64,000 nt of DNA from a virus (lineage: Duplodnaviria; Caudoviricetes). Below are positions 3-25,897 of the stretch, in pieces. The notes under the pieces were generated by a model. The model did not search any database, was not told the DNA's origin, and was given only the letters and a program-made list of their open reading frames with translations. Position 1 is the first letter of the stretch; each line of letters opens with the position of its first letter. The stretch is from IMG/VR virus record IMGVR_UViG_3300008107_000020; one strand, written 5' to 3'. The translations under genes and the position numbers were made by a program.

Positions 3-2684
3 GAATTACTTAGAGATTCATTTGACATTTATGTTGTTGAATGGTCTAACCACACTGGTGGTGTGTTGGTTGTACAAAGAGATAAAATAACTTCAATGGT
101 CGCCCCAGATAAATTTTTTACTCTGGAAGAAAATAAAATTCAACTAATTGATATTATTAATAGGGTATCACCAGATATTGTACACTTAGAAGAAATTCCT
201 GAATATTTCATGGATTTTGAGGTTGCAAAAGAAATTTACAAAAAAGATCGTAACTATGTTATTGTAGAAACTTCTCACGATTCATCATACGATGCCACAC
301 AAAAGAAATTTTTCCCAGATAAATTTATGTTTGTATCTGATTGGCAAATTAAATTATTTGAATCAATCGATATCCCAAAAGTTTTGGTTGAATACCCTAT
401 TGAATATAAACAAAGGCCAAATAGAGAAGATGCATTAAAAGACCTTGGTTTAGATCCTAGTAAAAAACACGTATTACACGTTGGTTTATTTACACCAAGA
501 AAAAATCAAAAAGAATTTTTTGATTACGCAAGATCTTTACCTGAATATGTTTTCCATTCTGTTGGTAATCAAGCTGGCAACTTTGCTCATTACTGGGAAC
601 CTTTGATGAAAGATAAACCAGAAAATGTTGTTTGGCATGGTGAAAGAAAAGATGTTGACAGGTTTTATCAGGCGATGGATTTATTCCTATTCACATCTAG
701 AGGTACAGATAATGATAAGGAAACAATGCCTTTGGTTATCCGTGAAGCGATTTCCTGGAATTTACCAATTTTAATTTACAACCTTGGCGTTTATCTTAAT
801 TATTTCGATAAGTTTGATAATATCAAGTACTTAGATTTTTCTGATTTTAACAAAAATTGTTCTTTAATCAAAGAAGTTTTAGAAAATGGTATTGAATTTC
901 AACCAAAAGTTAAAGAAATTAACAAAGAAAAAGAAGCTATCATTATTTCAACATATCCAACAACAAAAAGTGTTTTTGATACAACAGTTGAATGTATTTT
1001 AGCGGCTAAAAGAACGGGTAGAAAAGTTATTTTAACATCACATTTACCAGTTTCACCAGATTTACAAAATTTGGTAGATTATTATATCTACGATAAAAAC
1101 AATATTTTAACAAAACATACATTCTACTCCCAAAGTAGATATAGTGAAGCTGATTTCTTTGCTTTTGTTAACTTAAGAGGTGAAGGTAACGATGTTTATC
1201 ACGGCCCAACTTGCTACACAAATTATTATAATGGCGCTGCGTTGGCAAACGAATTGGGTATGGAAAAAGTTTATTTCCTTAACTACGATTATGTTCTAAA
1301 AAATGATGCGTATCTAGATAACATTTCAAATATATTAGATACAAAATCCGCTTATTTTGGTGATATGCCAAACAATCCAGAAGGTCATTCAGTTACCACA
1401 TTTTTTATGGGTATTAGACCGTCTTTTTATTTAAATTCCGTAGAGCCAATATCTTGCGCACAAGATTATGAAAATTTAAGAACAAAATGGGGTTCATTTA
1501 GTAATGGGTACGAAAATATGATGTTTTTTGCCTTCAAAGATAAAATGAACCAAATCGAATTGGTTGGTGAAGAACAGTTTAAAAATGAAGTGGCGACTAA
1601 TTTCCACCATAGAGATTATTCTAGGGTTGAATATTTCACAGTTTTGCCAACAACAGTACCTAACTCGTTTGCTGTTTATTTCCAGGTATCAAATTCAATT
1701 GACAGTAGAATTGTTAATATTAAAATTAATAAGAATGGGTCTTTACTTAAAGAGGAACAAATTACTGTAACAGGTAGAGGTGCTTGGTATAACATGGTTG
1801 GTTATAATTTAGATGAAAACGCTGAATATACCGTTGATTATCAGTCCTTTGATAAGGATACCCAACAATTTATTGAAAGTAAGTTTTTAAGAATTAACAA
1901 TGATTATATCACAAATGTCTTACCGAATAACGGAATGTTTGAATATAAAGGTGATATTAACGGCATCAATTTATTGAGTGATAATGATAGTTCAAAACCT
2001 AAAATTAGAATTGTACATTTAGTTACTGAACCATCAACCAACCCTAAAGAGTTACGTTCAGCTTTTTCTTTAAAAGATTTTGCTAGTAACTTCGACAATG
2101 TTGAATACTATGAAAAAATCAACGAGATCTACAAAGAGTTACCACCAGTTGATACGTGTAATAGACCACATGATGTTGCACCTGAACCAGGGTACTTCAA
2201 ACTATCCCCAGGGCATTACGGCTGTTTCTTGGCACATAAAAACGGTATAACTTTACCAGATAACAACAAATATGATTTCATCTTAGTGTTTGAGGGTGAT
2301 GTCATAATTGATGCACCTTACCAGGAATTGTATGATAATTTAATTAGATGGTCACAACTGGCTAAAGAAGAAAATGTTGATATGGTCGGTTTTGGTAACT
2401 ACTGCGCTGAGAGATATAGTGGTGAGCGTGAGGATTTAATGCTTAATTTAAGTATTTTTGCACCAGCGCAATCTTACTTGATTAATAGAGAAAAATTACC
2501 TACTTTTGTAGAAAGATTTGAAACGTGTAAATGGGATGCGTTTGACTTGTGGATGACCAAAGTTGCCAAACTACACGGTGCAATGGCAAACAAGATTTAT
2601 ACTAAACATTTACCAGGATATTCTATTGTAGATAGAAAAGATAAAAATAAAGACAACGACTACGCAGCAATTTTCACTAATTAA
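3..2684 (+). CDS. Multidomain glycosyltransferase (N-terminal GT-B/GT4-like, C-terminal GT25-like); 5'-truncated by the window edge
   Basis: Frame is open from position 3 (ELLRDSFDIYVVEWSNHTGG...). GT4-type motifs VLHVGLFTPRKNQ, WHGERKDVDRFYQAMDLFLFTS and ETMPLVIREA. C-terminal GHYGCFLAH...ILVFEGDV resembles GT25. Confidence 0.85.
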   Translation, partial: ELLRDSFDIYVVEWSNHTGGVLVVQRDKITSMVAPDKFFTLEENKIQLIDIINRVSPDIVHLEEIPEYFMDFEVAKEIYKKDRNYVIVETSHDSSYDATQKKFFPDKFMFVSDWQIKLFESIDIPKVLVEYPIEYKQRPNREDALKDLGLDPSKKHVLHVGLFTPRKNQKEFFDYARSLPEYVFHSVGNQAGNFAHYWEPLMKDKPENVVWHGERKDVDRFYQAMDLFLFTSRGTDNDKETMPLVIREAISWNLPILIYNLGVYLNYFDKFDNIKYLDFSDFNKNCSLIKEVLENGIEFQPKVKEINKEKEAIIISTYPTTKSVFDTTVECILAAKRTGRKVILTSHLPVSPDLQNLVDYYIYDKNNILTKHTFYSQSRYSEADFFAFVNLRGEGNDVYHGPTCYTNYYNGAALANELGMEKVYFLNYDYVLKNDAYLDNISNILDTKSAYFGDMPNNPEGHSVTTFFMGIRPSFYLNSVEPISCAQDYENLRTKWGSFSNGYENMMFFAFKDKMNQIELVGEEQFKNEVATNFHHRDYSRVEYFTVLPTTVPNSFAVYFQVSNSIDSRIVNIKINKNGSLLKEEQITVTGRGAWYNMVGYNLDENAEYTVDYQSFDKDTQQFIESKFLRINNDYITNVLPNNGMFEYKGDINGINLLSDNDSSKPKIRIVHLVTEPSTNPKELRSAFSLKDFASNFDNVEYYEKINEIYKELPPVDTCNRPHDVAPEPGYFKLSPGHYGCFLAHKNGITLPDNNKYDFILVFEGDVIIDAPYQELYDNLIRWSQLAKEENVDMVGFGNYCAERYSGEREDLMLNLSIFAPAQSYLINREKLPTFVERFETCKWDAFDLWMTKVAKLHGAMANKIYTKHLPGYSIVDRKDKNKDNDYAAIFTN

Positions 2685-3277
2685 TGTATTTACACGGGCA
2701 TAAATTAAACACTAAACACCCAGATTTTAGTCTTGGGTGGTGTGAATCGGTATTTAAAGAAATTTGGTTAGATCACGAATACTCAAGATATGGTGTTGAA
2801 GTTGAAAAAGGGGATATTGTTGTTGACTGTGGTGCTAATGTTGGTTTTTTTACTAACTACGCACTAAATTATCGTAAAGCAAAACATGTTTACTCATTTG
2901 AGTGTGATGAAACTTATGTGGAATGTTTAAGACAAAATACAAATGAAAATGTTACCATAACACAAGCATTTGTTTCGGATAGAGATGAAATTGGTCACTA
3001 TAACATAGAGAGAATGTTACATGATTTTGGTTTAACCCACATCGATTTTATTAAAGTTGACATTGAGTGGTGGGAATACCCATTATTAATTAACATGTCA
3101 AATGATACGATGAAAAGAGCGAACAAATGGGTAGTAGAACTACATAGTATATATGATAATTATGATAAAATATTAGATATAATTGAAAAATTTACATTAA
3201 ATGGGTTTGATGTAAATTATGAACAAGTACACAAAGAAACAAACCTAGCATTATTATACGCAAAAAAGAGAATATGA
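2684..3277 (+). CDS. FkbM-family SAM-dependent methyltransferase
   Basis: VVDCGANVGFF SAM-binding motif and IDFIKVDIEWWEY, typical of FkbM. Confidence 0.85.
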   Translation: MYLHGHKLNTKHPDFSLGWCESVFKEIWLDHEYSRYGVEVEKGDIVVDCGANVGFFTNYALNYRKAKHVYSFECDETYVECLRQNTNENVTITQAFVSDRDEIGHYNIERMLHDFGLTHIDFIKVDIEWWEYPLLINMSNDTMKRANKWVVELHSIYDNYDKILDIIEKFTLNGFDVNYEQVHKETNLALLYAKKRI

Positions 3278-4224
3278 AAATTTGTCAAGTACATCCTGGA
3301 TGTGGAATACCAGTGCCACCACCTAATTGGGGTGCTGTAGAAAAAATAGTATGGGAATTTACCCAGAATTTAAGATTATTAGGGCATGAGGTTGACATCA
3401 AATATGCAAATGAAATTCAACCAGGTGAATATGATGTTGTTCACGTGCACATGGCCAATTTATGCCATTTTTTACACGATAGAGGTATACCATACATTTA
3501 TCAATTACATGATCACCACGCTTATTACTATGGTAAGGGGTCTTATGTGTTCAACCAAAATAATAGGGCTATTCTCGAGTCACAGGTTTCATTAATGCCA
3601 GGTAGATTTTTAGTACCTTACTTTGAAACAGAAAAAGCTATTTATTTTTCACATGGTGTGAATACCGATTTTTATCACCCTTCAGACATCAGACCTAAAG
3701 AGCATAAACTATTATGTTTAGCTAATAACGGATTAGCTGGTATGGATGGGTACGATAGAAAAGGTTTTGGCTTTGCAATTCAAGCCGCAATGGCAAGAAA
3801 TCTACCGATCACAATTGCTGGTCCAAGAAATAACCAAAATTTCTTTAATGAGAATCCGTGGGTTAATGGGTACGCAAAATTATCAATTGAGTGGGAACCT
3901 AATCAAGATGAATTAGTTAATCTATACCATAGACATACAATTTTTATGCACCCTTCTGAATTAGAAGCTGGCCACCCTAATTTAACTATATTAGAGGCCG
4001 CTGCATGTGGCTTACCAATTAACGGTGCCATTGAGATGGAAACTGATTTTAACGGTATGTGGAGAGCACCTAGAAAGGTTACAGATATTGTACGTGGGTT
4101 AGATGATATTATAGCTAATTACGATTCATACCGTGAAAGAGCTATTCAACACGCTGAGTCTTTATCATGGTACAATAGATCAAAAGAATTATTAGAAGTT
4201 TATAAACAATACGCACAACAATGA
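3274..4224 (+). CDS. GT4-family glycosyltransferase
   Basis: PPPNWGAVEKIVW N-terminus, HGVNTDFY, and PSELEAGHPNLTILEAAACGLP (EX7E-like). Confidence 0.85.
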   Translation: MKICQVHPGCGIPVPPPNWGAVEKIVWEFTQNLRLLGHEVDIKYANEIQPGEYDVVHVHMANLCHFLHDRGIPYIYQLHDHHAYYYGKGSYVFNQNNRAILESQVSLMPGRFLVPYFETEKAIYFSHGVNTDFYHPSDIRPKEHKLLCLANNGLAGMDGYDRKGFGFAIQAAMARNLPITIAGPRNNQNFFNENPWVNGYAKLSIEWEPNQDELVNLYHRHTIFMHPSELEAGHPNLTILEAAACGLPINGAIEMETDFNGMWRAPRKVTDIVRGLDDIIANYDSYRERAIQHAESLSWYNRSKELLEVYKQYAQQ

Positions 4225-5846
4225 GGATATTAGGGCTTTCAGCTGGATCACATTCTTGTGGTATAAGCTTAATAGAGAACGGTAAGATAATCTTTTCTTT
4301 AGAAGAAGAAAGGCATACAAGAATAAAAGTTTACAAAGATTTTTATGGCGGTTATTTTAGATACCCACAGTTATCAATGTATGAAGCGGTTAAAAGATTT
4401 AACCTAGATCCAAACTCAGTTGATTATATAACGAGTTATTACCCCAAACATGAGGTTAAAGTATTTTGGGAAAGCTTAGGGTTAGGTCTATTCCCTGAAC
4501 AGAAATTCATATTCATTGATCATCATGATTCACATGCTGGGACCGCTTATTATATGAGCGGTTTTGATGATGACACACTTGTTGTTACCATGGATGCCAG
4601 CGGTGGACAGTATAGTGCAAAATATTTCGTAGGTTCTAATGGTGATTTAGATTATATCGATGGTTTGGATTTAACAAGAAAATCTTTTGGTCATTATTAT
4701 GCCATGTTAACAGAATTTTTAGGTTTTAGAAGACTTAAAGATGAAGGTAAAGTTGTTGGTATGGCCGCACACGGTAGACATGATAGCCTATCATACCAAG
4801 CCTTTAATGAGTGTATTAAAATTGAGGGTATACACACCGATAAAGACCAATCAGACGTACTATTAGGTCAAATTTATGTTGATTTTTATACCAGATATTA
4901 TAAATCATTAGGTTCTAAAGTGTTTTTTGGGACAAAAGCTGACTTAGCATATACAGGGCAATTTGTTTTTGAGGAAAAAATATTACAAGTTTTTAATAAC
5001 TTACATAACATGTACCCAAACATTAAAAAAGTTGCTGTAGCTGGTGGAGTTTTTGCTAATGTAAAATTAAATAAACGCATCAATGAATTATATTGGGTTA
5101 ATGAAATGTTTGTCGCACCCCCAATGGGTGATGAAGGTTGTCCGCTTGGTTGTGCTTTATTGGTACATAAAATGTTTACACCAGGGTTCAAACCATTTAG
5201 ATTAGAAAACATGTTTATGGGTACGGAGTATACTGATACTGAAGTTGGTGAACATTTTTGGGACCAAAATAAATTTTCAAGGGAGATATTCACCCCAGAA
5301 TTGGCAGCAAAATACTTGGCTGAAGGTAAAATTATCGGTATGTTCAACGGAAGGTATGAGCACGGCCCAAGGGCTTTAGGTAATCGTAGTATTATTGGTG
5401 AGGTAACTAACCCAGATACATATGATAAAATTAATAACAAACTACAAAGAAATGATTTCATGCCATTTGCGCCAGCTGTAATGGAAGAACATGCTGATAC
5501 AATTTTTAATGTCACAAAATCAAGATATACAGCTGAGTTTATGACGATGTTATATGATACAAGACCTGAGTGGGCCAATAGAATACCAACAGTTGTTCAT
5601 CCTAAGGATAAAACGGCTAGGATACAAATAGTAACTAAAACAAGCAATCCAACATTCTATAAAGTTTTGGATGAATATAATAAAATAACTGGCGTACCTG
5701 TTCTTTTAAATACATCATTTAATGTACACGAAGAACCAATCGTATGTCACCCAAACGAAGCGTTTAATCATTTACAGAATGACGTTGTTGACTTATTAAT
5801 AATAAATAATTTTATCTACAAAAAATATGAAGGACATCTTAATTAA
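4221..5846 (+). CDS. Carbamoyltransferase (NodU/CmcH/TobZ family)
   Basis: EEERHTRIK, HHDSHA, AGGVFANVKLN, GPRALGNRSI, FMPFAP and VLLNTSFNVHEEPIV motifs. Confidence 0.93.
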   Translation: MRILGLSAGSHSCGISLIENGKIIFSLEEERHTRIKVYKDFYGGYFRYPQLSMYEAVKRFNLDPNSVDYITSYYPKHEVKVFWESLGLGLFPEQKFIFIDHHDSHAGTAYYMSGFDDDTLVVTMDASGGQYSAKYFVGSNGDLDYIDGLDLTRKSFGHYYAMLTEFLGFRRLKDEGKVVGMAAHGRHDSLSYQAFNECIKIEGIHTDKDQSDVLLGQIYVDFYTRYYKSLGSKVFFGTKADLAYTGQFVFEEKILQVFNNLHNMYPNIKKVAVAGGVFANVKLNKRINELYWVNEMFVAPPMGDEGCPLGCALLVHKMFTPGFKPFRLENMFMGTEYTDTEVGEHFWDQNKFSREIFTPELAAKYLAEGKIIGMFNGRYEHGPRALGNRSIIGEVTNPDTYDKINNKLQRNDFMPFAPAVMEEHADTIFNVTKSRYTAEFMTMLYDTRPEWANRIPTVVHPKDKTARIQIVTKTSNPTFYKVLDEYNKITGVPVLLNTSFNVHEEPIVCHPNEAFNHLQNDVVDLLIINNFIYKKYEGHLN

Positions 5847-7098
5847 CGAATACAATAATACTGAAATCTTAGCAAAAGATTACAAACAACCAGCAAACTC
5901 ATTTATAGTACATTTTGTAAATGGTGCTTTATGTGAAATTAAAGGACCGATATCAAAAAAATACAAGGTTGTTTTTTCTGATAATAAAACTGGGCACGTT
6001 CATCACGTATCTGAGATTACAAATAACATGTGGACTAAAAGTGCCATTGAATATTTTATCGAATGGAATATTAAAGTATATGAGTTAGAAACGGAAGAGT
6101 TAGTTTTTGAACACACATACGATTGTAAAGATAAAAGGGTTTACATCCATTTAGATAGCTCTGCTGTTGGTGATACAATGGCTTGGTTTCCGTATGCGGA
6201 TGAGTTCAGAAAAAAACACGGGTGTAAAGTTTTGTGCTCAACATTCCATAATGAATGGTTTGAGGGTATGTATCCAGAAATTGAATTTGTTAAACCTGGT
6301 ACACCTGTTATTGATTTATACGCAATGTATAAGATTGGTTGGTTTTACGATAATAAAGAAGTTGTTAAAACCAAAATCCCGATTGATTTTAAACAGCACC
6401 CTTTACAAGAAACTAGTTCATGTATTCTAGGGTTGGATTATGAAGAGGTTAAACCAAAGGTTTTTGTACCAGAAGAGCCTAGTAGAATTGAAGGTAAATA
6501 TGTTATTATTGCACCTCACGCATCTGCACACGCTAAATATTGGAATCATCCAGGCGGATGGCAAGGTGTTATTGATCACTTAAATGCTAGTGGTTATAAG
6601 GTTGTTATGATTACATCAGAAAAACTGGGTGATGCTTGGCATGATTCAAAACTTGGTGGTACATTAAGAAATGTTATTGATAAAACTGGTGGTCATATTG
6701 ATCTGGTTGACAGAATGATTGACATTAAACACGCATCGGCTTTTATTGGTTTAGGTAGTGGTTTAAGTTGGTTATCTTGGGCTATCGGAACACCTACAGT
6801 TCTTATCTCTGGATTTAGTTACCCTTTATCTGAGTTTGCTGACTGTGAAAGGATTTTTAACCCAAATGTTTGTAACGGATGTTTTAATAGACATTGGTTA
6901 AACCCAGGGGATTGGGAATGGTGCCCAGATCACAAAGATACACCAAGACACTTTGAATGTTCTAAAACTATTGAAACTCAAACTGTTATAGACGCTGTTA
7001 ATAGACTTTTAACCAAAAAAGAAGAGCCAGTTCAAGAGGTCATTGAAGAAAATTTAGAAAAAAAAGATAAAAAAAGTTTTTTTGGTAAGTTTTTTTAG
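5827..7098 (+). CDS. Autotransporter strand-loop-strand O-heptosyltransferase-like protein (TibC/AAH family)
   Basis: N-terminal beta domain followed by RVYIHLDSSAVGDTMAWFPYADEFRKKH, IGLGSGLSWLSWAIGTPTVLISGFS, and Cys-rich CNGCFN...WCP...FECSK. Confidence 0.8.
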   Translation: MKDILINEYNNTEILAKDYKQPANSFIVHFVNGALCEIKGPISKKYKVVFSDNKTGHVHHVSEITNNMWTKSAIEYFIEWNIKVYELETEELVFEHTYDCKDKRVYIHLDSSAVGDTMAWFPYADEFRKKHGCKVLCSTFHNEWFEGMYPEIEFVKPGTPVIDLYAMYKIGWFYDNKEVVKTKIPIDFKQHPLQETSSCILGLDYEEVKPKVFVPEEPSRIEGKYVIIAPHASAHAKYWNHPGGWQGVIDHLNASGYKVVMITSEKLGDAWHDSKLGGTLRNVIDKTGGHIDLVDRMIDIKHASAFIGLGSGLSWLSWAIGTPTVLISGFSYPLSEFADCERIFNPNVCNGCFNRHWLNPGDWEWCPDHKDTPRHFECSKTIETQTVIDAVNRLLTKKEEPVQEVIEENLEKKDKKSFFGKFF

Positions 7099-7099
7099 G

Positions 7100-7132
7100 T
7101 ATATTTGTTGCTATAACATATAATAGCAACAA
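7100..7132 (+). promoter_or_regulatory. Bacteroidota -7 box TATATTTG overlapped by a 10-bp hairpin ending 2 nt before the ATG at 7135
   Basis: TTGTTGCTAT (7105-7114) is perfectly complementary to ATAGCAACAA (7123-7132). Confidence 0.55.
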
Positions 7133-7134
7133 CT

Positions 7135-8536: not shown

Positions 8537-8538
8537 AA

Positions 8539-8559
8539 AAAGGGGCGCTAGGCCCCTTT
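8539..8559. terminator. Bidirectional intrinsic terminator between convergent genes
   Basis: AAAGGGGC-GCTAG-GCCCCTTT, flanked by A and T runs. Confidence 0.8.
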
Positions 8560-8568
8560 CTTATTTTA

Positions 8569-18800: not shown

Positions 18801-21800
18801 CCATTTGTACCTGAAGTTGCTGAAGAACCAGCTGTACCACTTGTTGCTGAAGACGCTGAAGCTCCTGATGAACCACTTGTTCCTGTAGAACCAGCTGTAC
18901 CGCTTGTTGCTGAACTACCAGAAGATGCTGACAACCCACTTGAACCAGCTGAGCCAGAAGTTGCGGATGATCCTGATGTAGCAGAGCTACCACTATTTGC
19001 ACTCAACCCTGATGTACCATTTGTTCCACTTGTAGCTGAACTACCAGAAGAAGCGGATGTACCTGAAGAAGCTGAAGCACCTGAAGCACCAGCTGTACCG
19101 CTTGAACCAGAGGTACCTGAAGTTGCAGAAGAACCACTTGAAGCACTTAAACCTGAAGAACCAGCTGTACCTGAAGTAGCGGAGCTACCTGAAGTCGCTG
19201 AGGATCCGCTTAATGCGCTTAAACCACTTGTACCATTTGTTCCTGAAGTTGCGGATGAACCAGAAGATGCTGATGTACCTGAAGAAGCTGAAGCTCCTGA
19301 TGACCCTACTGAACCTGAAGAACCTGATGTTCCTGACGTAGCAGAACTACCAGAACTTGCACTCAATCCTGAAGAACCTGCGGTTCCTGAAGTTGCTGAG
19401 GATCCTGATGTGGCAGAGCTACCACTATTTGAAGATAGACCTGACGTACCAGCTGTTCCTGAAGTAGCGGAGCTACCTGAAGAACCTGATGAACCAGAAC
19501 TATTACTATTTCCACTCGAACCTGCGGTTCCTGAAGAAGCTGAACTTCCTGAAGAACCCGATGTACCACTAGTTGCAGATGACCCACTTGTAGCGGATGA
19601 TCCAGAATTAGCAGCTAAACCTGAAGTACCATTTGTACCTGAAGTTGCTGAAGATCCGCTTGACGCTGATGTCCCTGAAGATGCGCTTAAACCTGAAGAA
19701 CCAGCTGATCCAGCTGAACCTGATGTTCCTGACGTAGCAGAACTACCAGAAGATGCGCTTAAACCTGAACTACCTGATGTACCGCTTGTAGCAGAGCTAC
19801 CTGAGGTTGCAGAAGAACCTGAATTAGAACTCAACCCTGATGTACCATTTGTTCCTGAAGTTGCGGATGAACCAGAAGATGCTGATGTACCTGAAGAAGC
19901 TGAAGCTCCTGATGAACCAGCGGAACCACTTGTTCCCGAAGTACCAGAAGATGCTGAACTACCAGAAGATGCACTTAAACCTGAAGAACCAGCTGTACCT
20001 GAAGTTGCAGAAGAACCAGAGGAAGCTGATGACCCACTATTTGAGGCTAAACCTGAAGTACCATTTGTTCCACTTGTAGCTGAACTACCAGAAGAAGCTG
20101 ATGTACCAGAAGAAGCTGAAGCCCCTGAAGAACCTGATGTACCAGATGATCCTGAAGTAGCGGAAGTTCCTGAAGAACCCGCTGAACCAGAGCTACCACT
20201 ATTTGCGGCTAAACCAGAAGTACCATTTGTACCTGAAGTTGCGGAAGAACCAGAAGAAGCTGAAGTTCCTGAAGAAGCTGATGCTCCCGAAGAACCGTTA
20301 GAACCTGTAGAACCAGATGTTCCACTTGTTGCTGAAGATCCAGAAGAAGAACTTAAACCTGAAGAACCAACTGTTCCTGAGGTTGCGGATGAACCTGATG
20401 TTCCTGAAGAACCAGAGTTACTAGATAAACCGCCAGTACCATTTGTACCCGTAGAACCGCTTGAACCAGATGTTGCTGAAATAGCAGAAATACCATCAGC
20501 ACCATCAACACCGCTTGAACCAGATGTACCTGAAGAACCCGAAGAACCTGATGTTTTACTTGAACCAGCTAAACCGCTTGTACCTGTCGTACCTGAAGTC
20601 GCAGATGTACCTGAAGTTGCAGAAGAACCACTATTTGAAGATAATCCTGAAGTACCGTTTGTTCCTGAAGTTGCTGAAGATCCGCTTGATGCAGATGTTC
20701 CTGATGTTGAAGAAACACCGCTTGATCCAGCTGTACCAGAAGTTGCTGAAGAACCTGAGGTTGCTGAACTACCAGAAGATGCAGATAAACCCGAAGATCC
20801 TGATGTACCACTTGTAGCAGAACTACCTGAGGTTGCAGAAGAACCACTATTTGAAGATAAACCCGAAGTACCGTTTGTTCCTGAAGTTGCAGAAGAACCA
20901 GATGATGCAGACGTACCTGAAGTTGCTGAAGCACCTGAAGAACCAGCGCTACCTGTTGATCCTGATGTTCCTGATGTAGCACTTGATCCAGCTGAACCAG
21001 AAGACGCACTTAAACCAGAAGTACCAACTGTACCAGAAGTTGCTGAAGAACCTGAAGAAGCTGAAGCGCCAGAATTACCACCAGTTCCTGAAGTTCCTGA
21101 AGAACCACTTGAACCAGATGAGAATGATAATCTACTTTGACCAGCAACACCAGTTGTACCATTTGTACCAGAAGAACCAGAAGAACCTGAAGTTTCACTT
21201 AAACCACTGTTTGAACTAGCACCATTTGTACCGCTAGAACCTGAGGTTGCAGAAGAACCTGAGGTTGCGCTTGAACCACTATTTGCGGCTAAACCAGAAG
21301 TACCGATTGTACCTGAAGTTGCAGACGAACCTGAAGATGCTGCTGAACCTGATGACCCACTTTCACCACTTGAACCATTAGAACCTGATGTTCCTGAAGA
21401 ACCAGCTGTTCCTGAAGAGGCTGAGTCGCCAGAACTTCCTGATGTTCCAGTAGAGCCTGAAGCACCACTTGAACCAGATGTTCCAGTAGAACCGTTATCA
21501 CCAGAAGAACCGTTTGTTCCTGAAGAACCAGAAGCGCCTGATTCACCATTTAAACCATTTATACCTGAAGAACCTGAAGATCCAGTTGACCCTGAAGACC
21601 CACTTTCACCACTTTCACCTGAAGTACCAAAACTACCACCATCACCAGATGTACCATCGCTACCTGTAGAACCAGATTCACCCGATTGACCAGATGTCCC
21701 AAATGAGCCATCATTACCCGAAGATCCATCGCTACCTGTAGAACCAGATTCACCACTTATTCCTGAAGTTCCTGAAGAACCGTTATCACCGCTTGTACCA

Positions 21801-24800
21801 TCCGATCCTGTACTACCACTTTCACCGCTTATTCCTGATGTACCGTTAGAACCTTCGTTTCCTGATGTACCATCTGATCCAGTTGAACCTGATTCACCAC
21901 TTATTCCTGAAGTTCCTGAAGAACCGTTATCACCGCTTGTACCATTTGAACCAGTTGACCCAGAGTCGCCACTTACACCCGATGTACCATTAGAACCATC
22001 ATTACCTGATGTACCATCTGAACCAGTTGAACCGCTTTCACCTGATAAACCACTTGTACCGTTAGATCCGTTATTACCTGATGTGCCATCACTACCCGTG
22101 CTACCACTTTCACCTGATACACCAGAAGTTCCACTTGAACCATTATCACCAGAAGAACCATCTGAACCAGTTGATCCCGATTCTCCACTTATACCAGAGG
22201 TTCCGTTGGAGCCATCATCACCTGAAGAACCGTTAGTTCCTGAAGAACCTGAAGCTCCGCTTTCACCATTTAAACCATTTATACCTGAAGAACCTGAAGA
22301 TCCAGTTGATCCCGAAGACCCACTTTCGCCAGATTGGCCAGATGTTCCAAATGAACCATCATTACCTGAAGAACCATCTGATCCAGAGGATCCAGACTCA
22401 CCTGATATACCAGATGTTCCAAATGAACCATCATTACCTGAAGATCCATCGCTACCTGTGGAACCAGATTCACCCGATTGACCAGATGTACCGTAAGACC
22501 CATCAGCCCCACTTGATCCATCTGACCCAGTTGATCCAGACTCACCACTTATTCCCGAAGTCCCTGAAGATCCGTCATTACCTGATGTGCCATCACTACC
22601 AGTTGAACCTGATTCTCCACTTATTCCTGAAGTTCCATTTGAACCATTATCACCGCTACTACCATCACTACCAGTTGATCCAGACTCACCACTTATTCCT
22701 GAAGTCCCATTAGATCCGTCATTACCTGAAGATCCGTCTGAACCAGTTGAACCACTTTCACCTGATTGACCTGAAGTTCCGTTGGAACCATCGTTACCTG
22801 AAGACCCATCTGAACCAGTAGACCCAGATTCACCACTTATACCAGAGGTTCCAAAACTACCGTTAGCTCCTGAAGAACCGTCTGAACCAGTTGAACCTGA
22901 TTCACCACTTATACCAGAGGTTCCGTTAGAACCGTTATCACCAGAAGAACCGTTAGTTCCTGAAGAACCTGAAGCTCCGCTTTCACCATTTAAACCATTT
23001 ATACCTGAAGAACCTGAAGATCCAGTTGATCCTGAGGATCCCGATTCACCACTTTCACCTGAAGTACCAAAACTACCGTCAGCTCCTGAAGAACCATCAC
23101 TACCCGTGCTACCACTTTCACCTGATTGACCAGATGTTCCTGAAGAACCGTCATTACCTGAAGATCCGTCTGAACCTGTGCTACCACTTTCACCGCTTAT
23201 CCCTGATGTTCCAAATGAACCATCCGCTCCTGAAGAACCATCTGACCCAGTTGATCCAGACTCACCACTTATTCCTGAAGTACCATTAGATCCGTCATTA
23301 CCAGATGTACCATCTGATCCAGTAGACCCAGATTCACCTGATTGGCCAGAGGTTCCAAATGAACCGTCAGCCCCACTTGATCCATCGGATCCTGAAGACC
23401 CAGATTCACCTGATTGGCCAGAGGTTCCAAATGAACCGTCAGCCCCACTTGATCCATCGGATCCTGTAGAACCAGATTCACCTGATTGGCCAGAAGTACC
23501 AAAAGATCCATCATTACCTGAAGAACCTGAAGATCCAGTTGATCCCGATTCTCCACTTATTCCTGAAGTTCCATTAGATCCGTCATTACCTGAAGATCCG
23601 TCTGAACCTGTGCTACCACTTTCACCACTTATTCCTGAAGTCCCATTTGAGCCATTATCGCCTGATGTACCATCTGAACCAGTTGATCCTGACTCGCCAG
23701 ATTGGCCAGAAGTACCAAAAGATCCATCATTACCTGAAGACCCATCTGATCCAGTAGACCCAGATTCACCCGATTGACCAGAGGTTCCAAATGAACCATC
23801 ATTACCTGAAGACCCATCTGAACCTGTGCTACCGCTTTCACCCGATTGACCAGAAGTACCATTTGATCCGTCATTACCTGAAGAACCATTGGATCCGTTT
23901 GATCCCGATTCACCACTTATTCCTGAAGTTCCATCAACACCATCAACACCATCAACACCATTTGTACCAGAAGTACCACTTTCACCTGATGTACCAGATT
24001 CACCCGATGAACCACTTTCACCAGATTGGCCAGATGTACCGTTAGAACCATCCGCTCCTGAAGAACCATCTGAACCAGTAGACCCAGATTCACCACTTAT
24101 ACCAGAGGTTCCTGAAGAACCGTCATTACCACTACTACCATCACTACCAGTTGAACCAGATTCCCCTGAAGTCCCGTTAACGCCTGTTGTACCAGAATCA
24201 CCGTCCGAACCGTTAGTTCCTGAAGAACCTGAAGCTCCGCTTTCACCATTTAAACCATTTATACCTGAAGAACCTGAAGACCCAGTTGATCCTGAAGACC
24301 CACTTTCGCCAGATTCACCTGAAGTTCCATTTGAACCATTATCACCACTACTACCATCACTACCTGTACTACCACTTTCTCCACTTACCCCTGAAGTTCC
24401 TGAAGAACCATCATTACCTGATGATCCATCTGATCCTGTACTACCGCTTTCACCACTTATACCTGAAGTTCCGTTGGAACCATCGTTACCGCTTTCACCT
24501 GATGTACCATTACTGCCTGATTCACCAGAAATACCTGAAGTACCAAAACTACCATCATTACCACTTGACCCATCTGATCCTGTTGATCCCGATTCACCAC
24601 TTATACCAGAGGTTCCGTTAGAACCACTTTCTCCACTTATTCCTGAAGTTCCTGAAGAACCATCATTACCACTAGATCCGTCAGACCCTGTTGAACCTGA
24701 TTCACCAGAAATACCTGAAGTACCAAAACTACCGTCAGCTCCTGAAGAACCATCTGATCCTGTTGACCCAGATTCACCAGAAATACCAGAAGTTCCATTG

Positions 24801-25560
24801 GAACCATCGGCACCACTTTCACCTGAAGTACCAGTTGACCCTGATTCACCTGAAACACCTGAAGTACCATTAGAACCATCGTTACCGCTTATCCCACTTG
24901 TGCCATCAACACCATCAACACCATCAATACCATTTGTACCAGAAGTACCAGATTGACCACTCGTACCATCATTTCCTGTGCTACCAGATTCACCTGATAT
25001 ACCTGATGTTCCATTTGAACCATCCGCTCCTGAAGAACCATCTGAACCAGTACTACCAGATTCACCACTTACTCCTGAAGTCCCTGAAGATCCGTCATTA
25101 CCTGATGTGCCATCACTACCAGTTGAACCTGATTCACCACTTATACCAGAGGTTCCGTTGGAACCATCTGCTCCTGAAGAACCGTCAGAGCCAGTTGAAC
25201 CACTTTCTCCACTTATTCCTGAAGTTCCTGAAGAACCATCATTACCACTTTCACCTGATGTGCCATTACTACCACTTTCTCCACTTAAACCTGAGGTTCC
25301 GTTACTACCATCATTACCCGATGTACCATCTGATCCTGTTGACCCAGATTCGCCAGACATCCCCGAAGTTCCGTTGGAGCCATCGGCACCGCTTTCACCT
25401 GAAGTACCAGTGCTACCTGATTCACCACTTATCCCTGAAGTTCCTGAAGAACCATCATTACCACTACTACCATCACTACCATTACTACCTGATTCTCCAG
25501 AAACACCAGATGTACCATCAGAACCACTCAAACCCGAATAACCTGAAGTACCAGCTGTAC
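9050..25560 (-). repeat. About 16.5 kb coding tripeptide repeat in three compositional zones
   Basis: About 25560-21430: acidic unbroken Gly-X-Y, about 24-aa unit GTSGISGESGSTGSDGSSGNDGS(F/N/S). About 21430-12870: (G/A)-X-S with GLSQLS, GLSRLS and ALSKSS inserts. 12860-9050: Asn-richer GTNG/GNNG. Synonymous codons vary between units. Confidence 0.95.
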
Positions 25561-25897
25561 CAGAAGTACCTGTTAATAAAGGTGAATATGAATATTCACC
25601 AGTAGCTGCATTAAACGACACAAAATAGTTCGGTGAACTATTTTCGGTCATTCCTGTAACAAATAACTCATTTAAAATATAAACACCCTTAAGATCTTGG
25701 GTGTTTTCCCACTGTCCAGTGGTATCGTTCCAAACTAAAATGTCCCCTTCATTGGGGCCACTAATTACAACGTCAGATAGATCATCTATTCCAAGATTTT
25801 CTATAACGTCTTTTATATTTTGGAAGTTAGCATCTAATTCCGCATAGGATAGTGCCCTTCCTAGATCGTCTCTAAGATAAATTGTTACTGTTGCCAT
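12848..25897 (-). CDS. N-terminal part (4349 aa) of the giant Gly-X-Ser repeat fibre protein
   Basis: Phage fibre-like N-terminus (YLRDDLGRALSYAELDANF), then more than 4200 aa of tripeptide repeat. It ends abruptly in SIRFK* at a frameshift. Confidence 0.85.
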   Translation of the reverse strand: MATVTIYLRDDLGRALSYAELDANFQNIKDVIENLGIDDLSDVVISGPNEGDILVWNDTTGQWENTQDLKGVYILNELFVTGMTENSSPNYFVSFNAATGEYSYSPLLTGTSGTAGTSGYSGLSGSDGTSGVSGESGSNGSDGSSGNDGSSGTSGISGESGSTGTSGESGADGSNGTSGMSGESGSTGSDGTSGNDGSNGTSGLSGESGSNGTSGESGNDGSSGTSGISGESGSTGSDGSSGADGSNGTSGISGESGSTGSDGTSGNDGSSGTSGVSGESGSTGSDGSSGADGSNGTSGISGESGSTGNDGTSGQSGTSGTNGIDGVDGVDGTSGISGNDGSNGTSGVSGESGSTGTSGESGADGSNGTSGISGESGSTGSDGSSGADGSFGTSGISGESGSTGSDGSSGNDGSSGTSGISGESGSNGTSGISGESGSTGSDGSSGNDGSFGTSGISGESGSNGTSGESGNDGSNGTSGISGESGSTGSDGSSGNDGSSGTSGVSGESGSTGSDGSSGDNGSNGTSGESGESGSSGSTGSSGSSGINGLNGESGASGSSGTNGSDGDSGTTGVNGTSGESGSTGSDGSSGNDGSSGTSGISGESGSTGSDGSSGADGSNGTSGQSGESGSSGESGTSGESGTSGTNGVDGVDGVDGTSGISGESGSNGSNGSSGNDGSNGTSGQSGESGSTGSDGSSGNDGSFGTSGQSGESGSTGSDGSSGNDGSFGTSGQSGESGSTGSDGTSGDNGSNGTSGISGESGSTGSDGSSGNDGSNGTSGISGESGSTGSSGSSGNDGSFGTSGQSGESGSTGSDGSSGADGSFGTSGQSGESGSSGSDGSSGADGSFGTSGQSGESGSTGSDGTSGNDGSNGTSGISGESGSTGSDGSSGADGSFGTSGISGESGSTGSDGSSGNDGSSGTSGQSGESGSTGSDGSSGADGSFGTSGESGESGSSGSTGSSGSSGINGLNGESGASGSSGTNGSSGDNGSNGTSGISGESGSTGSDGSSGANGSFGTSGISGESGSTGSDGSSGNDGSNGTSGQSGESGSTGSDGSSGNDGSNGTSGISGESGSTGSDGSSGDNGSNGTSGISGESGSTGSDGTSGNDGSSGTSGISGESGSTGSDGSSGADGSYGTSGQSGESGSTGSDGSSGNDGSFGTSGISGESGSSGSDGSSGNDGSFGTSGQSGESGSSGSTGSSGSSGINGLNGESGASGSSGTNGSSGDDGSNGTSGISGESGSTGSDGSSGDNGSSGTSGVSGESGSTGSDGTSGNNGSNGTSGLSGESGSTGSDGTSGNDGSNGTSGVSGDSGSTGSNGTSGDNGSSGTSGISGESGSTGSDGTSGNEGSNGTSGISGESGSTGSDGTSGDNGSSGTSGISGESGSTGSDGSSGNDGSFGTSGQSGESGSTGSDGTSGDGGSFGTSGESGESGSSGSTGSSGSSGINGLNGESGASGSSGTNGSSGDNGSTGTSGSSGASGSTGTSGSSGDSASSGTAGSSGTSGSNGSSGESGSSGSAASSGSSATSGTIGTSGLAANSGSSATSGSSATSGSSGTNGASSNSGLSETSGSSGSSGTNGTTGVAGQSRLSFSSGSSGSSGTSGTGGNSGASASSGSSATSGTVGTSGLSASSGSAGSSATSGTSGSTGSAGSSGASATSGTSASSGSSATSGTNGTSGLSSNSGSSATSGSSATSGTSGSSGLSASSGSSATSGSSATSGTAGSSGVSSTSGTSASSGSSATSGTNGTSGLSSNSGSSATSGTSATSGTTGTSGLAGSSKTSGSSGSSGTSGSSGVDGADGISAISATSGSSGSTGTNGTGGLSSNSGSSGTSGSSATSGTVGSSGLSSSSGSSATSGTSGSTGSNGSSGASASSGTSASSGSSATSGTNGTSGLAANSGSSGSAGSSGTSATSGSSGTSGSSGASASSGTSASSGSSATSGTNGTSGLASNSGSSASSGSSATSGTAGSSGLSASSGSSASSGTSGTSGSAGSSGASASSGTSASSGSSATSGTNGTSGLSSNSGSSATSGSSATSGTSGSSGLSASSGSSATSGTSGSAGSAGSSGLSASSGTSASSGSSATSGTNGTSGLAANSGSSATSGSSATSGTSGSSGSSASSGTAGSSGNSNSSGSSGSSGSSATSGTAGTSGLSSNSGSSATSGSSATSGTAGSSGLSASSGSSATSGTSGSSGSVGSSGASASSGTSASSGSSATSGTNGTSGLSALSGSSATSGSSATSGTAGSSGLSASSGSSATSGTSGSSGTAGASGASASSGTSASSGSSATSGTNGTSGLSANSGSSATSGSSATSGSAGSSGLSASSGSSATSGTAGSTGTSGSSGASASSATSGTAGSSATSGTNGTSGLSANSGSSASSGSSATSGTAGSSGLSASSGSSATSGTSGSTGSNGSSGASASSGTSASSGSSATSGTNGTSGLSSNSGSSGTSASSGTSGTTGTVGSSANSGSSGSAGSSATSGTSGSTGSAGSSGASASSGTSASSGSSATSGTVGTSGLSQLSGSSGSAGTSATSGTSGSSGSSGSAGTDGASALSKSSGTSGSSGSSGSTGTNGTSGLAANSGSSATSGSSATSGTTGTSGSSALSSSAGSSGSSATSGTAGSSGLSALSASSGTSASSGSTGSNGTSGLAANSGSSATSGSSATSGTAGTSGLSQLSGSSGSAGTSATSGTSGSSGSSGSAGTDGASALSKSSGTSGSSGSTGTAGTNGASANSGSSATSGSSATSGTAGTSGLSQLSGSAGSAGSSATSGTSGSSGSSGSAGTSGQSANSGSSATSGSSATSGTVGTSGLSRLSGSSATAGTSGTSGTDGQSATSDTSGTSGSSGSTGTSGTDGQSALSKSSGTSGSSGSSGSAGTNGASANSGSSATSGSSATSGTAGTSGLSQLSGSSGSAGTSATSGTSGSSGSSGSAGTDGASALSKSSGTSGSSGSSGSTGTNGTSGNAGNSGLSATSGSSATSGTTGTSGTNGASANSGSSGTSASSGTTGTTGTSGSSNNSGSAGTSGSSGSSGTSGTVGASANSGSSGSSGSSATSGTAGTNGLSQLSGSSGSAGTSATSGTSGSSGSSGSAGTDGASALSRSSGTSGSSGSTGTNGTNGASANSGSSATSGSSATSGTAGTSGLSQLSGSSGSAGSSASSGTTGTSGTAGNSGLSQLSGSSASSGSSGTNGTSGLSRSSGSSGTSGSSGTNGTDGASALSRSSGTSGSSGSTGTNGTNGASANSGSSGSAGTSATSGTAGTSGLSQLSGSAGSSGSSATSGTSGSSALSGSAGSAGSSATSGTSGSSGLSASSGSAGTSASSGSTGTNGTSGLSANSGSSATSGSSATSGTAGTNGLSQLSGSSGSAGTSATSGTSGSSGSSGSSGTDGASALSRSSGTSGSSGSTGTNGTNGASANSGSSATSGSSATSGTAGTSGLSQLSGSAGSAGSSATSGTSGSSGSAGTSGQSANSGSSATSGSSATSGTVGTSGLSRLSGSSATAGTSGTSGTDGQSALSDTSGTSGSSGSTGTSGTDGQSGLSRSSGTSGSSGSTGSNGTNGASANSGSSATSGSSATSGTVGTSGLSQLSGSSGSAGTSATSGTSGSSGSSGSAGTDGASALSKSSGTSGSSGSSGSTGTNGTSGLAANSGSSGTSASSGTSGTTGTVGSSALSSSSGSSGSSGSSATSGTAGSSGLSGSAGSSATSGTSGSTGSNGTSGASANSGSSATSGSSATSGTAGTSGLGRLSGSSATAGTSGTSGTDGVSATSDTSGTSGSSGSTGTSGTDGQSSLSRSSGTSGSSGSTGTNGTNGASANSGSSATSGSSATSGTVGTSGLSQLSGSSGSAGSSATSGTSGSSGSSASSGSAGTSGQSANSGSSGTSASSGSTGTNGTAGLSGLSQLSGSSASSGSSGTTGTAGTNGLSRLSGSSATAGTSGTSGTDGVSATSDTSGTSGSAGSTGTSGTDGQSGLSRSSGSSGTSGSSGSTGTNGTSGNAGNSGLSSTSGSSATSGTTGTNGTNGASANAGSSGSSGSSATSGTAGTSGSSNNSGSAGTSGSSGSTGTNGTNGASANAGSSGTSASSGTTGTAGTNGLSQLSGSSGSAGTSATSGTSGSSGSAATSGLSANSGSSATSGSSGSTGTNGTSGQSANSGSSGSAGSSATSGTVGTSGLSRLSGSSGSSATSGTSGSSGTAGASGLSQLSGSSASSGSSGTNGTSGLSRSSGSSGTSGSSGTNGTDGASALSRSSGTSGSSGSTGTAGTIGSSNNSGSAGTSGSSATSGTVGTSGLAANSGLSVTSGTSGTSGSSGSKGTDGTAGVSGASASSGTSASSATSGTAGTSIRFK

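What the first reader, a model, noticed from the sequence alone, without database searches (positions are those of the whole stretch)
3..25897. Candidate phage protein-O-glycosylation system: tailoring cassette beside a giant Ser-rich fibre
Seen: five overlapping genes (multidomain GT4/GT25-like, FkbM methyltransferase, GT4, carbamoyltransferase, TibC/AAH-like transferase) lie about 1.5 kb from a gene encoding more than 5000 residues of X-X-Ser repeat. Established: TibC/AAH enzymes glycosylate Ser in repetitive adhesins. Serine-rich-repeat adhesins and Bacillus BclA are glycosylated by nearby GTs. Glycosylated Y-position Thr stabilises Riftia cuticle collagen. Inference: the phage glycosylates Y-position serines of a Pro-free collagen-like fibre and methylates or carbamoylates the glycan, for stability, shielding or host binding.
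Basis: partly seen in the sequence, partly recalled or inferred. Interest (0 to 1): 0.8.

Follow-up and report, generated by a model that had tools for sequence, protein, structure and literature searches.

The report
Phage sugar-coating enzymes beside giant fibre
A large uncultured lake phage carries a true relative of the bacterial enzymes that put heptose sugars on serines of adhesins, plus four more sugar-tailoring enzymes, next to a roughly 5,800-residue proline-free, serine-packed collagen-like tail fibre, so it most likely sugar-coats its own fibre, though no experiment has tested this.

Summary
The cassette is real. Five translationally coupled genes encode a three-domain glycosyltransferase, an FkbM methyltransferase, a GT4, an O-carbamoyltransferase and a TibC/Aah-family (BAHT) protein O-heptosyltransferase. 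The BAHT passes TIGR04414 (326 bits, cut-off 200) and matches TibC at E 6e-61. It keeps the catalytic Asp, the sugar-binding residues and all four iron-finger Cys.

The fibre is real but split in this assembly. A 4-base insertion near 12859-12863 divides it into 4349-aa and 1464-aa ORFs. No read contig bridges the site, and close relatives have open genes.

The repeat region (5,496 aa) has 35% Ser, 3 Pro, 8 Lys and no KGE/KGD. Ser at the Y position is better kept than Gly.

Of 21 well-flanked BAHT loci, 20 hold such a fibre and the 21st holds a short one. Among fibres sharing the C-terminal chaperone domain, BAHT accompanies 28 of 30 Ser/Thr-rich, Pro-poor collagen-like ones and 4 of 20 others. 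Only the BAHT and two GTs are conserved with the fibre; the methyl- and carbamoyl-transferases are lineage-specific.

Glycosylation itself, the donor sugar and the sites remain inferred. This scan noted the same pairing before on at least 19 other genomes. I found no paper describing it. A cultured Microcystis phage (Mel-JY01) carries the pairing.

The parts
3..2684 (+). Three-domain glycosyltransferase (893 aa here, 5' end cut by the window edge). Residues 1-300 are a GT-B/GT4-like domain, 305-565 a GT-A domain, 540-632 a beta-sandwich, and 665-875 a second GT-A, GT25-like domain.
   Evidence: Pfam Glycos_transf_1. Weak GT25 hit at E 0.005. AF2 model with pLDDT 76. Fold matches to GT4 enzymes at Z about 15. 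Residues 298-872 match COLGALT1's tandem GT-A at Z 14.8, rmsd 10.5. Relatives are 917 aa. Conserved next to BAHT in most lineages.
2684..3277 (+). FkbM-family methyltransferase (197 aa). Accessory: present only in the closest relatives.
   Evidence: PF05050 and TIGR01444. Absent from L004 and from the co-directional lineages.
3274..4224 (+). GT4-type glycosyltransferase (316 aa), part of the conserved core.
   Evidence: Pfam Glycos_transf_1. Homologues lie between the fibre and BAHT in most lineages.
4221..5846 (+). NodU/CmcH-type O-carbamoyltransferase (541 aa). Specific to the window's lineage.
   Evidence: PF16861 at 3e-59 and PF02543 at 2e-33. phrog_1601 full length. Found only in loci whose BAHT is 70-96% identical.
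5827..7098 (+). TibC/Aah-family (BAHT) protein O-heptosyltransferase homologue (423 aa).
   Evidence: PDB 4RAP/4RB4 TibC at E 6e-61. TIGR04414 at 326 bits against a cut-off of 200. D116, S233, K237, R296, W315 and C349/C352/C366/C378 align with TibC D110, T226, K230, R286, W305 and C339/342/358/370.
7135..7710 (+). Glucosaminidase endolysin with an N-terminal hydrophobic segment. A neighbour, probably not part of the system.
   Evidence: PF01832, endolysin PHROGs, KD19 of 1.84.
7703..8536 (+). Peptidase-like protein (277 aa) between BAHT and the fibre end. Role unknown.
   Evidence: phrog_4191 at 8e-39. Same position in L004.
8569..12963 (-). C-terminal piece of the fibre. The triplet repeat resumes at about residue 34 of this ORF. 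It ends in a tail-fibre intramolecular-chaperone (S74-type) domain.
   Evidence: Translation. Tail-fibre PHROGs down to E 7e-32 on the last 215 aa. Pfam Peptidase_S74 on the homologous end in L053.
12848..25897 (-). N-terminal piece of the fibre (4349 aa). It has a globular head of about 105 aa, strict Gly-X-Y to about aa 1650, then (Gly/Ala)-X-Ser triplets.
12859..12863 (-). 4-base insertion that splits the fibre gene. It may be an assembly join.
   Evidence: Sequence. Logan contigs of two runs break exactly at 12862|12863 and no listed contig bridges the site. Relatives are open for 2,721-3,508 aa.
25985..28450 (-). ClpB/ClpC-like double AAA+ chaperone next to the fibre start. A possible helper; this is speculative.
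   Evidence: Pfam AAA_2, AAA_lid_9, ClpB_D2-small. Same position in L004 and L090.
29476..30144 (+). 2OG-Fe(II) oxygenase of the prolyl-hydroxylase type, close to a fibre that has almost no proline. Target unknown.
   Evidence: PF13640 at 2e-13. A homologue is kept in L090.

Best explanation
This is a phage-encoded, cytoplasmic protein O-glycosylation system whose substrate is the phage's own giant collagen-like fibre. Shown by sequence: gene 5827-7098 is a bona fide TibC/Aah-family enzyme with its catalytic base, sugar-binding residues and iron-finger cysteines intact. The neighbouring genes add four more glycosyltransferase domains, a methyltransferase and an O-carbamoyltransferase. All five cassette proteins lack membrane segments. 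Inferred: late in infection the BAHT transfers a heptose from ADP-heptose to serines of the (Gly/Ala)-X-Ser repeats, most likely the near-invariant Y-position Ser. The donor is presumably host-made, since no phage pathway gene was found. The three-domain GT and the GT4 then extend the sugar into a short oligosaccharide. In this lineage the glycan is further O-methylated and O-carbamoylated. The fibre trimerises from its C-terminal S74-type chaperone domain. The repeats have no proline, almost no lysine and no KGE/KGD salt-bridge triplets. The glycan coat is therefore the likeliest stabiliser of a triple helix up to about 1.6 micrometres long. It could also shield the fibre or take part in host binding.
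For: BAHT membership: TibC at E 6e-61; TIGR04414 at 326 bits against a cut-off of 200; key residues conserved.

Linkage, anchored on BAHT: 20 of 21 loci with at least 6 kb on both sides hold a Gly-periodic, GST-rich ORF. The 21st (L004) holds a 495-aa Gly-X-Ser protein in the same slot.

Linkage, anchored on the fibre's C-terminal domain: BAHT is present with 28 of 30 Ser/Thr-rich, Pro-poor collagen-like fibres and with 4 of 20 others. The deduplicated Fisher p is 1e-7, but the loci are not phylogenetically independent.

All 14 BAHT clusters (under 70% identity) show the pairing, in convergent and co-directional arrangements. In the co-directional lineages the order is fibre, GTs, BAHT, tail sheath, tail tube, which places the set inside the structural module.

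Y-position Ser is 77% where Gly is only 73%. It uses both TCN and AGY codons, as other genes do, so it is selected at the protein level. The DNA repeats are only 60-84% alike.

The repeat region has 3 Pro, 8 Lys and 0 KGE/KGD in 5,496 aa. Published collagen stabilisers are Pro/Hyp, Lys-Glu/Asp salt bridges or glycosylated Thr (PMC11923368).

No transmembrane segment is found in any cassette enzyme, and no Wzx/Wzy or polyprenyl-phosphate transferase was detected in the window.

A cultured Microcystis phage carries the same pairing.
Against: There is no direct evidence of glycosylation.

Characterised BAHTs act on beta-helical autotransporter passenger domains through a strand-loop-strand structural motif, not on collagen-like chains.

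The residue that sets heptose stereoselectivity (Pro300 in TibC, Ser294 in Aah) is Gly310 here. The thumb-tip residues that hold the TibC dodecamer together are not kept (D269/A270).

No gmhA or rfaE gene was found in the window or in five related records, two of them at least 92% complete. The likely host phylum (Bacteroidota) is not known for heptose-rich LPS, so the donor is open.

Two Ser/Thr-rich fibre types have no BAHT within the flank available (L136/L138, L141/L142). One BAHT locus (L045) has only Pro-containing collagen-like ORFs.

The fibre gene is frameshifted in this assembly.

The methyl- and carbamoyl-transferases are not conserved with the fibre.
Confidence: 0.6

Rival explanations
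1. The cassette remodels a host surface glycan (LPS, capsule or a host glycoprotein) during infection, for example to block superinfection. On this reading its position beside the fibre only reflects the 'host-recognition' gene neighbourhood.
For: GT4, GT25-like and NodU-type enzymes are typical of polysaccharide pathways. A published analysis of pelagimyophages reads glycosyltransferases in the tail-fibre region as O-chain modifiers (PMC7029224).
Against: The anchor enzyme belongs to a family known only as protein serine O-heptosyltransferases (PMC4358343). No flippase, polymerase or lipid-carrier transferase was found, and no enzyme has a membrane segment. The linkage tracks fibre chemistry, not fibres in general: BAHT accompanies 4 of 20 other S74-type fibres, and all 4 are truncated or partly collagen-like.
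Confidence: 0.1
2. The enzymes glycosylate other virion proteins, such as capsid, sheath or shorter Ser-rich fibres, either instead of or as well as the giant fibre. This would resemble mycobacteriophages, which glycosylate capsid and tail-tube termini.
For: Phage virion glycosylation of capsid and tail tube is documented (Freeman et al. 2023, cited in PMC12619734). In Mel-JY01 a non-collagen, Ser-rich 'structural protein' lies between the collagen-like ORF and the BAHT fusion. In co-directional lineages the cassette abuts the sheath gene.
Against: The only feature that tracks BAHT across lineages in these data is the Ser/Thr-rich collagen-like ORF. Sheath and tube genes are not adjacent in the window's lineage.
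Confidence: 0.15
3. In this particular genome the fibre gene is truly broken. The 4-base insertion is real, so the phage makes a 4349-aa protein without the C-terminal trimerisation/chaperone domain, or no functional fibre, and the cassette has lost its main substrate.
For: The insertion and the TAG stop are in the sequence. There is no plausible slippery site for programmed +1 frameshifting (my reading).
Against: Contigs from two runs end exactly at 12862|12863, and in one run the contig continues differently. This is the signature of a repeat branch point and a possible chimeric join. Close relatives have open frames across the equivalent region. The downstream 1,430 codons remain open and repeat-like.
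Confidence: 0.3

Closest known systems
TibC/TibA and Aah/AIDA-I: bacterial autotransporter heptosyltransferases (BAHT; TIGR04414; PDB 4RAP/4RB4; PMC4358343)
   Same: The enzyme is homologous at about 40% identity over 330 residues. It keeps the catalytic Asp, the Lys/Arg/Trp sugar-binding residues and the four-Cys iron finger. It is a cytoplasmic enzyme encoded beside a long, repetitive, Ser-rich surface protein that it would hyperglycosylate.
   Different: It is phage-encoded. The presumed acceptor is a Gly-X-Ser collagen-like fibre, not a beta-helical autotransporter. The stereoselectivity residue is Gly. The thumb-tip residues for the dodecamer are not kept. It is accompanied by four more GT domains plus methyl- and carbamoyl-transferases, so an oligosaccharide is expected rather than a single heptose. 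No ADP-heptose pathway was found nearby.
Glycosylated bacterial collagen-like spore proteins (B. anthracis BclA; C. difficile BclA3 with the adjacent glycosyltransferase SgtA, PMC7157674)
   Same: These are collagen-like, hydroxyproline-free filaments carrying O-glycans on hydroxy-amino acids in the repeats, added by a glycosyltransferase encoded next door.
   Different: Their repeats are Gly-Pro-Thr-rich and a few hundred residues long. Their enzymes are not BAHTs. Here Ser is the hydroxy-amino acid, Pro is absent and the chain is about 20 times longer.
Riftia cuticle collagen and Gly-Pro-Thr(Gal) peptides (Mann 1996; Bann 2000, as cited in PMC11923368)
   Same: A glycosylated hydroxy-amino acid in the Y position replaces hydroxyproline as the triple-helix stabiliser.
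   Different: This is an animal extracellular collagen with galactosyl-Thr and proline in the X position. It is an analogy for the mechanism only, not homology.
Virus-encoded virion glycosylation: mycobacteriophage capsid and tail-tube glycans (Freeman 2023, PMC10527164, cited); Mimivirus fibril and collagen glycosylation, chlorovirus A064R (PMC9614988)
   Same: A virus brings its own cytoplasmic glycosyltransferases, and in chloroviruses a methyltransferase domain, to decorate virion surface proteins.
   Different: The enzyme families and acceptors differ. No BAHT is reported in those systems. The three-domain GT here resembles COLGALT1 and the Mimivirus R655/R699 GT-A folds only at the generic fold level.

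Membership tests
BAHT (TibC/Aah; TIGR04414) | Scores above the curated equivalog cut-off and aligns over the full length | tested here: met
   326.1 bits against a cut-off of 200, profile positions 20-374 of 374. TibC at E 6e-61.
BAHT (TibC/Aah; TIGR04414) | Catalytic base Asp110 and sugar-binding residues Thr226, Lys230, Arg286 and Trp305 | tested here: met
   D116, S233 (Thr to Ser), K237, R296 and W315.
BAHT (TibC/Aah; TIGR04414) | Four-cysteine 1Fe-0S iron finger (Cys339/342/358/370) | tested here: met
   C349, C352, C366 and C378 align. Iron binding itself cannot be tested here.
BAHT (TibC/Aah; TIGR04414) | Ring dodecamer held by the beta-hairpin thumb (Phe265/Val266, Phe368) | tested here: inconclusive
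   F376 is kept, but the thumb tip reads D269/A270. The oligomeric state was not modelled.
BAHT (TibC/Aah; TIGR04414) | Uses ADP-heptose; stereoselectivity is set by Pro300 (D,D) or Ser294 (L,D) | not testable with these tools
   The position is Gly310. No gmhA or rfaE was found in the window or in five related records.
BAHT (TibC/Aah; TIGR04414) | The acceptor is a neighbouring autotransporter with a beta-helical passenger domain | tested here: not met
   No autotransporter was detected in the window. The conserved neighbour is a collagen-like fibre. It is a sequence-family member with a different presumed substrate class.
Prokaryotic/phage collagen-like proteins | Uninterrupted Gly-X-Y triplets | tested here: met
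   Gly is 97% at its position in aa 105-1650. Only 73-78% Gly (Ala 10-21%) in the remaining about 3,900 repeat residues, so this is met for one third and atypical for the rest.
Prokaryotic/phage collagen-like proteins | A trimerisation domain at the C-terminus | tested here: met
   Tail-fibre S74-type chaperone PHROG hits at E 7e-32. Pfam PF13884 on the L053 homologue.
Prokaryotic/phage collagen-like proteins | Known sequence stabilisers: Pro in X/Y positions or Lys-Gly-Glu/Asp salt bridges | tested here: not met
   3 Pro, 8 Lys and 0 KGE/KGD in 5,496 residues.
Prokaryotic/phage collagen-like proteins | Forms a triple helix | not testable with these tools
NodU/CmcH/TobZ O-carbamoyltransferases | Kae1-like N domain plus YrdC-like C domain | tested here: met
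   PF02543 at 2e-33 and PF16861 at 3e-59. phrog_1601 over 1-535. The NodU equivalog cut-off is not reached (138 bits against 1000), so this is family-level membership only.

The most novel reading that the evidence does not exclude
Phages have recruited the autotransporter heptosyltransferase family to build a 'glyco-collagen'. This would be a micrometre-long, proline-free, salt-bridge-free triple helix, or a related three-stranded fibre that tolerates Ala in a quarter of its Gly positions. Its folding and stability would depend on dense O-glycosylation of the Y-position serines, with lineage-specific methyl and carbamoyl caps tuning surface chemistry. It would be a third, glycan-based solution to collagen stability, used at very large scale by aquatic phages, and it would mean BAHTs can act on non-beta-helical substrates.
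Probability: 0.3. Interest if true: 0.8.

Novelty: new variant of a known kind. Interest (0 to 1): 0.62.

Why it matters
BAHT enzymes are known only from proteobacterial adhesin systems, and phage virion glycosylation has been shown only in mycobacteriophages. If the fibre is glycosylated, three things follow. Protein O-heptosylation, or a related O-glycosylation, would be widespread in environmental phages: 234 IMG/VR loci and thousands of homologues. There would be an explanation for how enormous proline-free collagen-like fibres can fold. Glycosyltransferases in phage 'host-recognition' regions, now read as LPS modifiers, would need reinterpreting. It would also offer a natural enzyme-substrate pair for making densely glycosylated collagen-like materials. 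The cultured Microcystis phage Mel-JY01 carries the pairing, so the idea can be tested directly.

Tried and rejected
- Megablast of the cassette against GenBank phages found no match.
- No whole genome is held for this window.
- Read-laying across the frameshift used Logan contigs only. They are shattered by the repeats, none bridges 12862|12863, and the question stays open.
- UvrD-anchored loci, intended as a background control, returned only close relatives of the same phage and were not used.
- I searched for ADP-heptose genes (gmhA TIGR00441, rfaE domain II TIGR02199) in five related records. There was no gmhA, and one sub-threshold, cut rfaE-like match at a contig end.
- The 'cytidylyltransferase-like' protein near the Mel-JY01 BAHT looks NMNAT-like, not HldE-like.
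- A PF01467 search of four window-lineage contigs found nothing, but these are only about 20% complete.
- Reading TAG as a sense codon does not rescue the fibre, because the downstream frame is not repeat-like.
- Programmed +1 frameshifting was judged unlikely, as there is no slippery site.
- The 495-aa ORF at 41833-43320 is unrelated to the short fibre of L004.
- Literature searches for phage TibC/BAHT, glycosylated collagen-like tail fibres and Mel-JY01 found no paper describing this pairing.
Full report
**What is there.**
- The window is phage DNA. It has a 16-tRNA array, two lysins, a tail-fibre chaperone domain and phage-type helicase and kinase genes.
- No whole genome is held for it.
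- Near-identical DNA occurs in lake and freshwater metagenomes.
- Related IMG/VR contigs of about 60 kb are rated about 20% complete, so the genome is roughly 300 kb.
- It resembles the recently described large freshwater 'moraphages' of Bacteroidota, which have chaperones and four core glycosyltransferase orthogroups (PMC12619734). I did not test membership of that group.

**The cassette.**
- Five + strand genes overlap by 1, 4, 4 and 20 bases.
- Gene 1 (3-2684) lacks about 24 codons at the window edge compared with 917-aa relatives.
  - Its AF2 model (pLDDT 76) has a GT-B domain (1-300), a GT-A domain (305-565), a beta-sandwich, and a second GT-A domain (665-875).
  - Residues 298-872 superpose on the tandem GT-A of human collagen galactosyltransferase COLGALT1 (Z 14.8, rmsd 10.5 Å over 375 residues).
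  - That row is tied with generic GT-A and GT-B hits, so I read it only as 'three glycosyltransferase domains, the last one GT25-like'.
- Genes 2-4 are an FkbM methyltransferase, a GT4 and a NodU/CmcH-type carbamoyltransferase.
- Gene 5 (5827-7098) is the key enzyme.
  - It matches TibC at E 6e-61 and passes the curated TIGR04414 cut-off at 326 against 200 bits.
  - Mapped on the TibC structure paper (PMC4358343), it keeps the catalytic base (D116), the sugar-binding residues (S233, K237, R296, W315) and all four iron-finger cysteines.
  - It differs at the stereoselectivity position (Gly310 instead of Pro or Ser) and at the thumb tip (D269/A270).
- None of the five proteins has a membrane segment.

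**The fibre.**
- On the − strand, 25897..12848 (4349 aa) and 12963..8569 (1464 aa) are two pieces of one gene.
  - A 4-base insertion near 12859-12863 shifts the frame, and a TAG follows.
  - Taking out the 4 bases restores both the frame and the triplet phase.
  - Logan contigs from two runs end exactly at 12862|12863. In one run the contig continues differently, and none bridges the site.
  - Close relatives are open for 2,721-3,508 residues.
  - I lean towards an assembly join inside the repeats, but this is unresolved.
- The protein has a globular start of about 105 residues and an S74-type tail-fibre chaperone end.
- The repeat region covers 5,496 residues: 35% Ser, 27.5% Gly, 13% Thr, 3 Pro, 8 Lys and no KGE/KGD.
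- Residues 105-1650 are strict Gly-X-Y, with Gly at 97% and Y = Ser at 58%. In the next 2,700 residues Gly falls to 73% with Ala at 21%, while Y = Ser rises to 77%.
- Y-position Ser uses both the TCN and AGY codon boxes, as other genes do. The DNA repeats are only 60-84% alike, with periods of 72, 144 and 216 bases.
  - The Ser is therefore maintained at the protein level and not by recent repeat copying.
- As a triple helix the repeat would be about 1.6 micrometres long (0.286 nm per residue is textbook knowledge).

**Is the cassette tied to the fibre?**
- BAHT homologues are abundant in viral contigs: 234 loci and 4,992 proteins.
- Of 21 BAHT-anchored loci with at least 6 kb on both sides, 20 hold a Gly-periodic, Gly/Ser/Thr-rich, Pro-poor ORF.
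  - The exception, L004, has the same synteny. It carries a 495-aa protein with the same N-terminus and two short Gly-X-Ser runs in the fibre slot.
- In the reverse test I anchored on the fibre's C-terminal domain. After removing duplicates, BAHT is present with 28 of 30 Ser/Thr-rich, Pro-poor collagen-like fibres and with 4 of 20 others.
  - Those 4 are truncated or partly collagen-like. The 16 without BAHT include non-collagen fibres and Pro-rich or Ser/Thr-poor collagens.
  - Fisher p is 1e-7. The loci are related, so the p value overstates independence.
  - As a check on this, all 14 BAHT clusters below 70% identity show the pairing, in two arrangements: convergent as here, and co-directional.
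- In the co-directional myoviruses the order is fibre, small ORF, three-domain GT, GT4, BAHT, tail sheath, tail tube.
- The conserved core is therefore the fibre plus the BAHT plus the two GT genes.
  - The carbamoyltransferase is confined to the window's lineage and FkbM to its closest members.
- Exceptions are L136/L138 and L141/L142 (Ser/Thr-rich fibres with no BAHT in the flank held) and L045 (BAHT with Pro-containing collagen-like ORFs).

**A cultured example.**
- Microcystis phage Mel-JY01 (PP395634.1) encodes a 1226-aa GT4-BAHT fusion that scores 317 bits on TIGR04414.
- About 1.7 kb upstream lies an ORF of at least 1016 aa made of Gly-(Ser/Thr)-Ser triplets, running off the record start. 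GenBank does not annotate it and instead calls shadow ORFs on the opposite strand.
- A Ser-rich, non-collagen 'structural protein' lies between the two genes.

**Mechanism.**
- Shown: enzyme family membership, conserved residues, fibre composition and conserved linkage.
- Inferred: cytoplasmic O-glycosylation of fibre serines by the BAHT; extension by the other GT domains; methyl and carbamoyl tailoring in this lineage; and trimerisation from the C-terminal chaperone domain.
- The stabilising role rests on analogy.
  - Published collagen stabilisers are Pro/Hyp, Lys-Glu/Asp salt bridges or glycosylated Thr (PMC11923368). This fibre has only the hydroxy-amino acids.
  - C. difficile BclA3, glycosylated by its neighbouring SgtA, is a bacterial precedent (PMC7157674).
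- The donor sugar is open. No heptose-pathway gene was found in the window or in five related records.

**Rivals.**
- Host-glycan remodelling is the published reading for glycosyltransferases near pelagimyophage fibres (PMC7029224). It fits the generic GTs but not the BAHT, the absence of membrane and export components, or the chemistry-specific linkage.
- Glycosylation of other virion proteins cannot be excluded.
- A truly broken fibre gene in this genome remains possible.

**Novelty.**
- I found no paper linking phage BAHTs to collagen-like fibres.
- This scan has noted the same pairing before on at least 19 other genomes, and on this window's BAHT gene. The pairing is therefore not new to the scan.
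- This window adds:
  - the largest fibre I saw in these data;
  - the methyl and carbamoyl tailoring genes;
  - the finding that Ser outlasts Gly in the repeats;
  - the zero count of Pro and salt-bridge triplets;
  - the frameshift caveat;
  - the cultured Mel-JY01 example.

Noticed in passing
L187 (PP395634.1) 2-3052 +, and 4750-8430 +: The cultured Microcystis phage Mel-JY01 has an unannotated Gly-(Ser/Thr)-Ser collagen-like ORF of at least 1016 aa running off the record start. GenBank annotates Pro/Glu/Val-rich shadow ORFs on the opposite strand instead. About 1.7 kb downstream is a 1226-aa GT4-BAHT fusion annotated only as 'methyltransferase FkbM'.
   Followed up: partly
window 48251-50590: There is an array of 16 tRNA genes, including an amber-suppressor-type tRNA (anticodon CTA, 48329-48403). 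TAG ends only 3 of 42 ORFs checked, one of which is the frameshifted fibre piece. This raises the possibility of late TAG recoding.
   Followed up: partly
window 29476-30144 +: A prolyl-hydroxylase-type 2OG-Fe(II) oxygenase sits 3.6 kb from a fibre with 3 prolines in 5,496 repeat residues. Its target is unknown. A homologue is kept near the fibre in L090.
   Followed up: partly
window 25985-28450 -: A ClpB/ClpC-like double-AAA+ chaperone lies directly upstream of the fibre start, and the position is conserved in L004 and L090. It might handle the giant unfolded chain.
   Followed up: no
window 44791-46728 -: A 645-aa protein has a cohesin domain and a sub-threshold T9SS C-terminal sorting domain (22.9 bits against a cut-off of 27). 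This is a hint of a Bacteroidota host.
   Followed up: no
window 39551-41836 -: A 761-aa Ser/Thr/Asn-rich protein has an apparent N-terminal signal peptide and no Pfam hit. By eye it contains a C-type-lectin-like WND...YICEY stretch.
   Followed up: no
window 59485-60327 -: A further GT92/GT2-like glycosyltransferase lies far from the cassette.
   Followed up: no
window 57876-58694 +: A 272-aa protein matches the catalytic core of class II (Asp/Lys/Asn) aminoacyl-tRNA synthetases.
   Followed up: no
window 36745-37581 + and 7135-7710 +: There are two separate lysins. One has a PG_binding_1 domain plus a GH19-like domain. The other is a glucosaminidase with an N-terminal hydrophobic (signal-anchor-like) segment.
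   Followed up: no
L004 12375-13862 -: In a relative whose BAHT is 90% identical, the giant fibre slot holds a 495-aa protein with the same N-terminus, two short Gly-X-Ser runs and two globular domains. This is either a natural short form or a repeat collapse in assembly.
   Followed up: partly
L097 2-10393 + and 13018-15300 +: A distant lineage (BAHT 35% identical, fused into a 760-aa protein) has a fibre of at least 3463 aa that is 95% Gly/Ser/Thr, almost pure Gly-(Ser/Thr)-Ser.
   Followed up: partly
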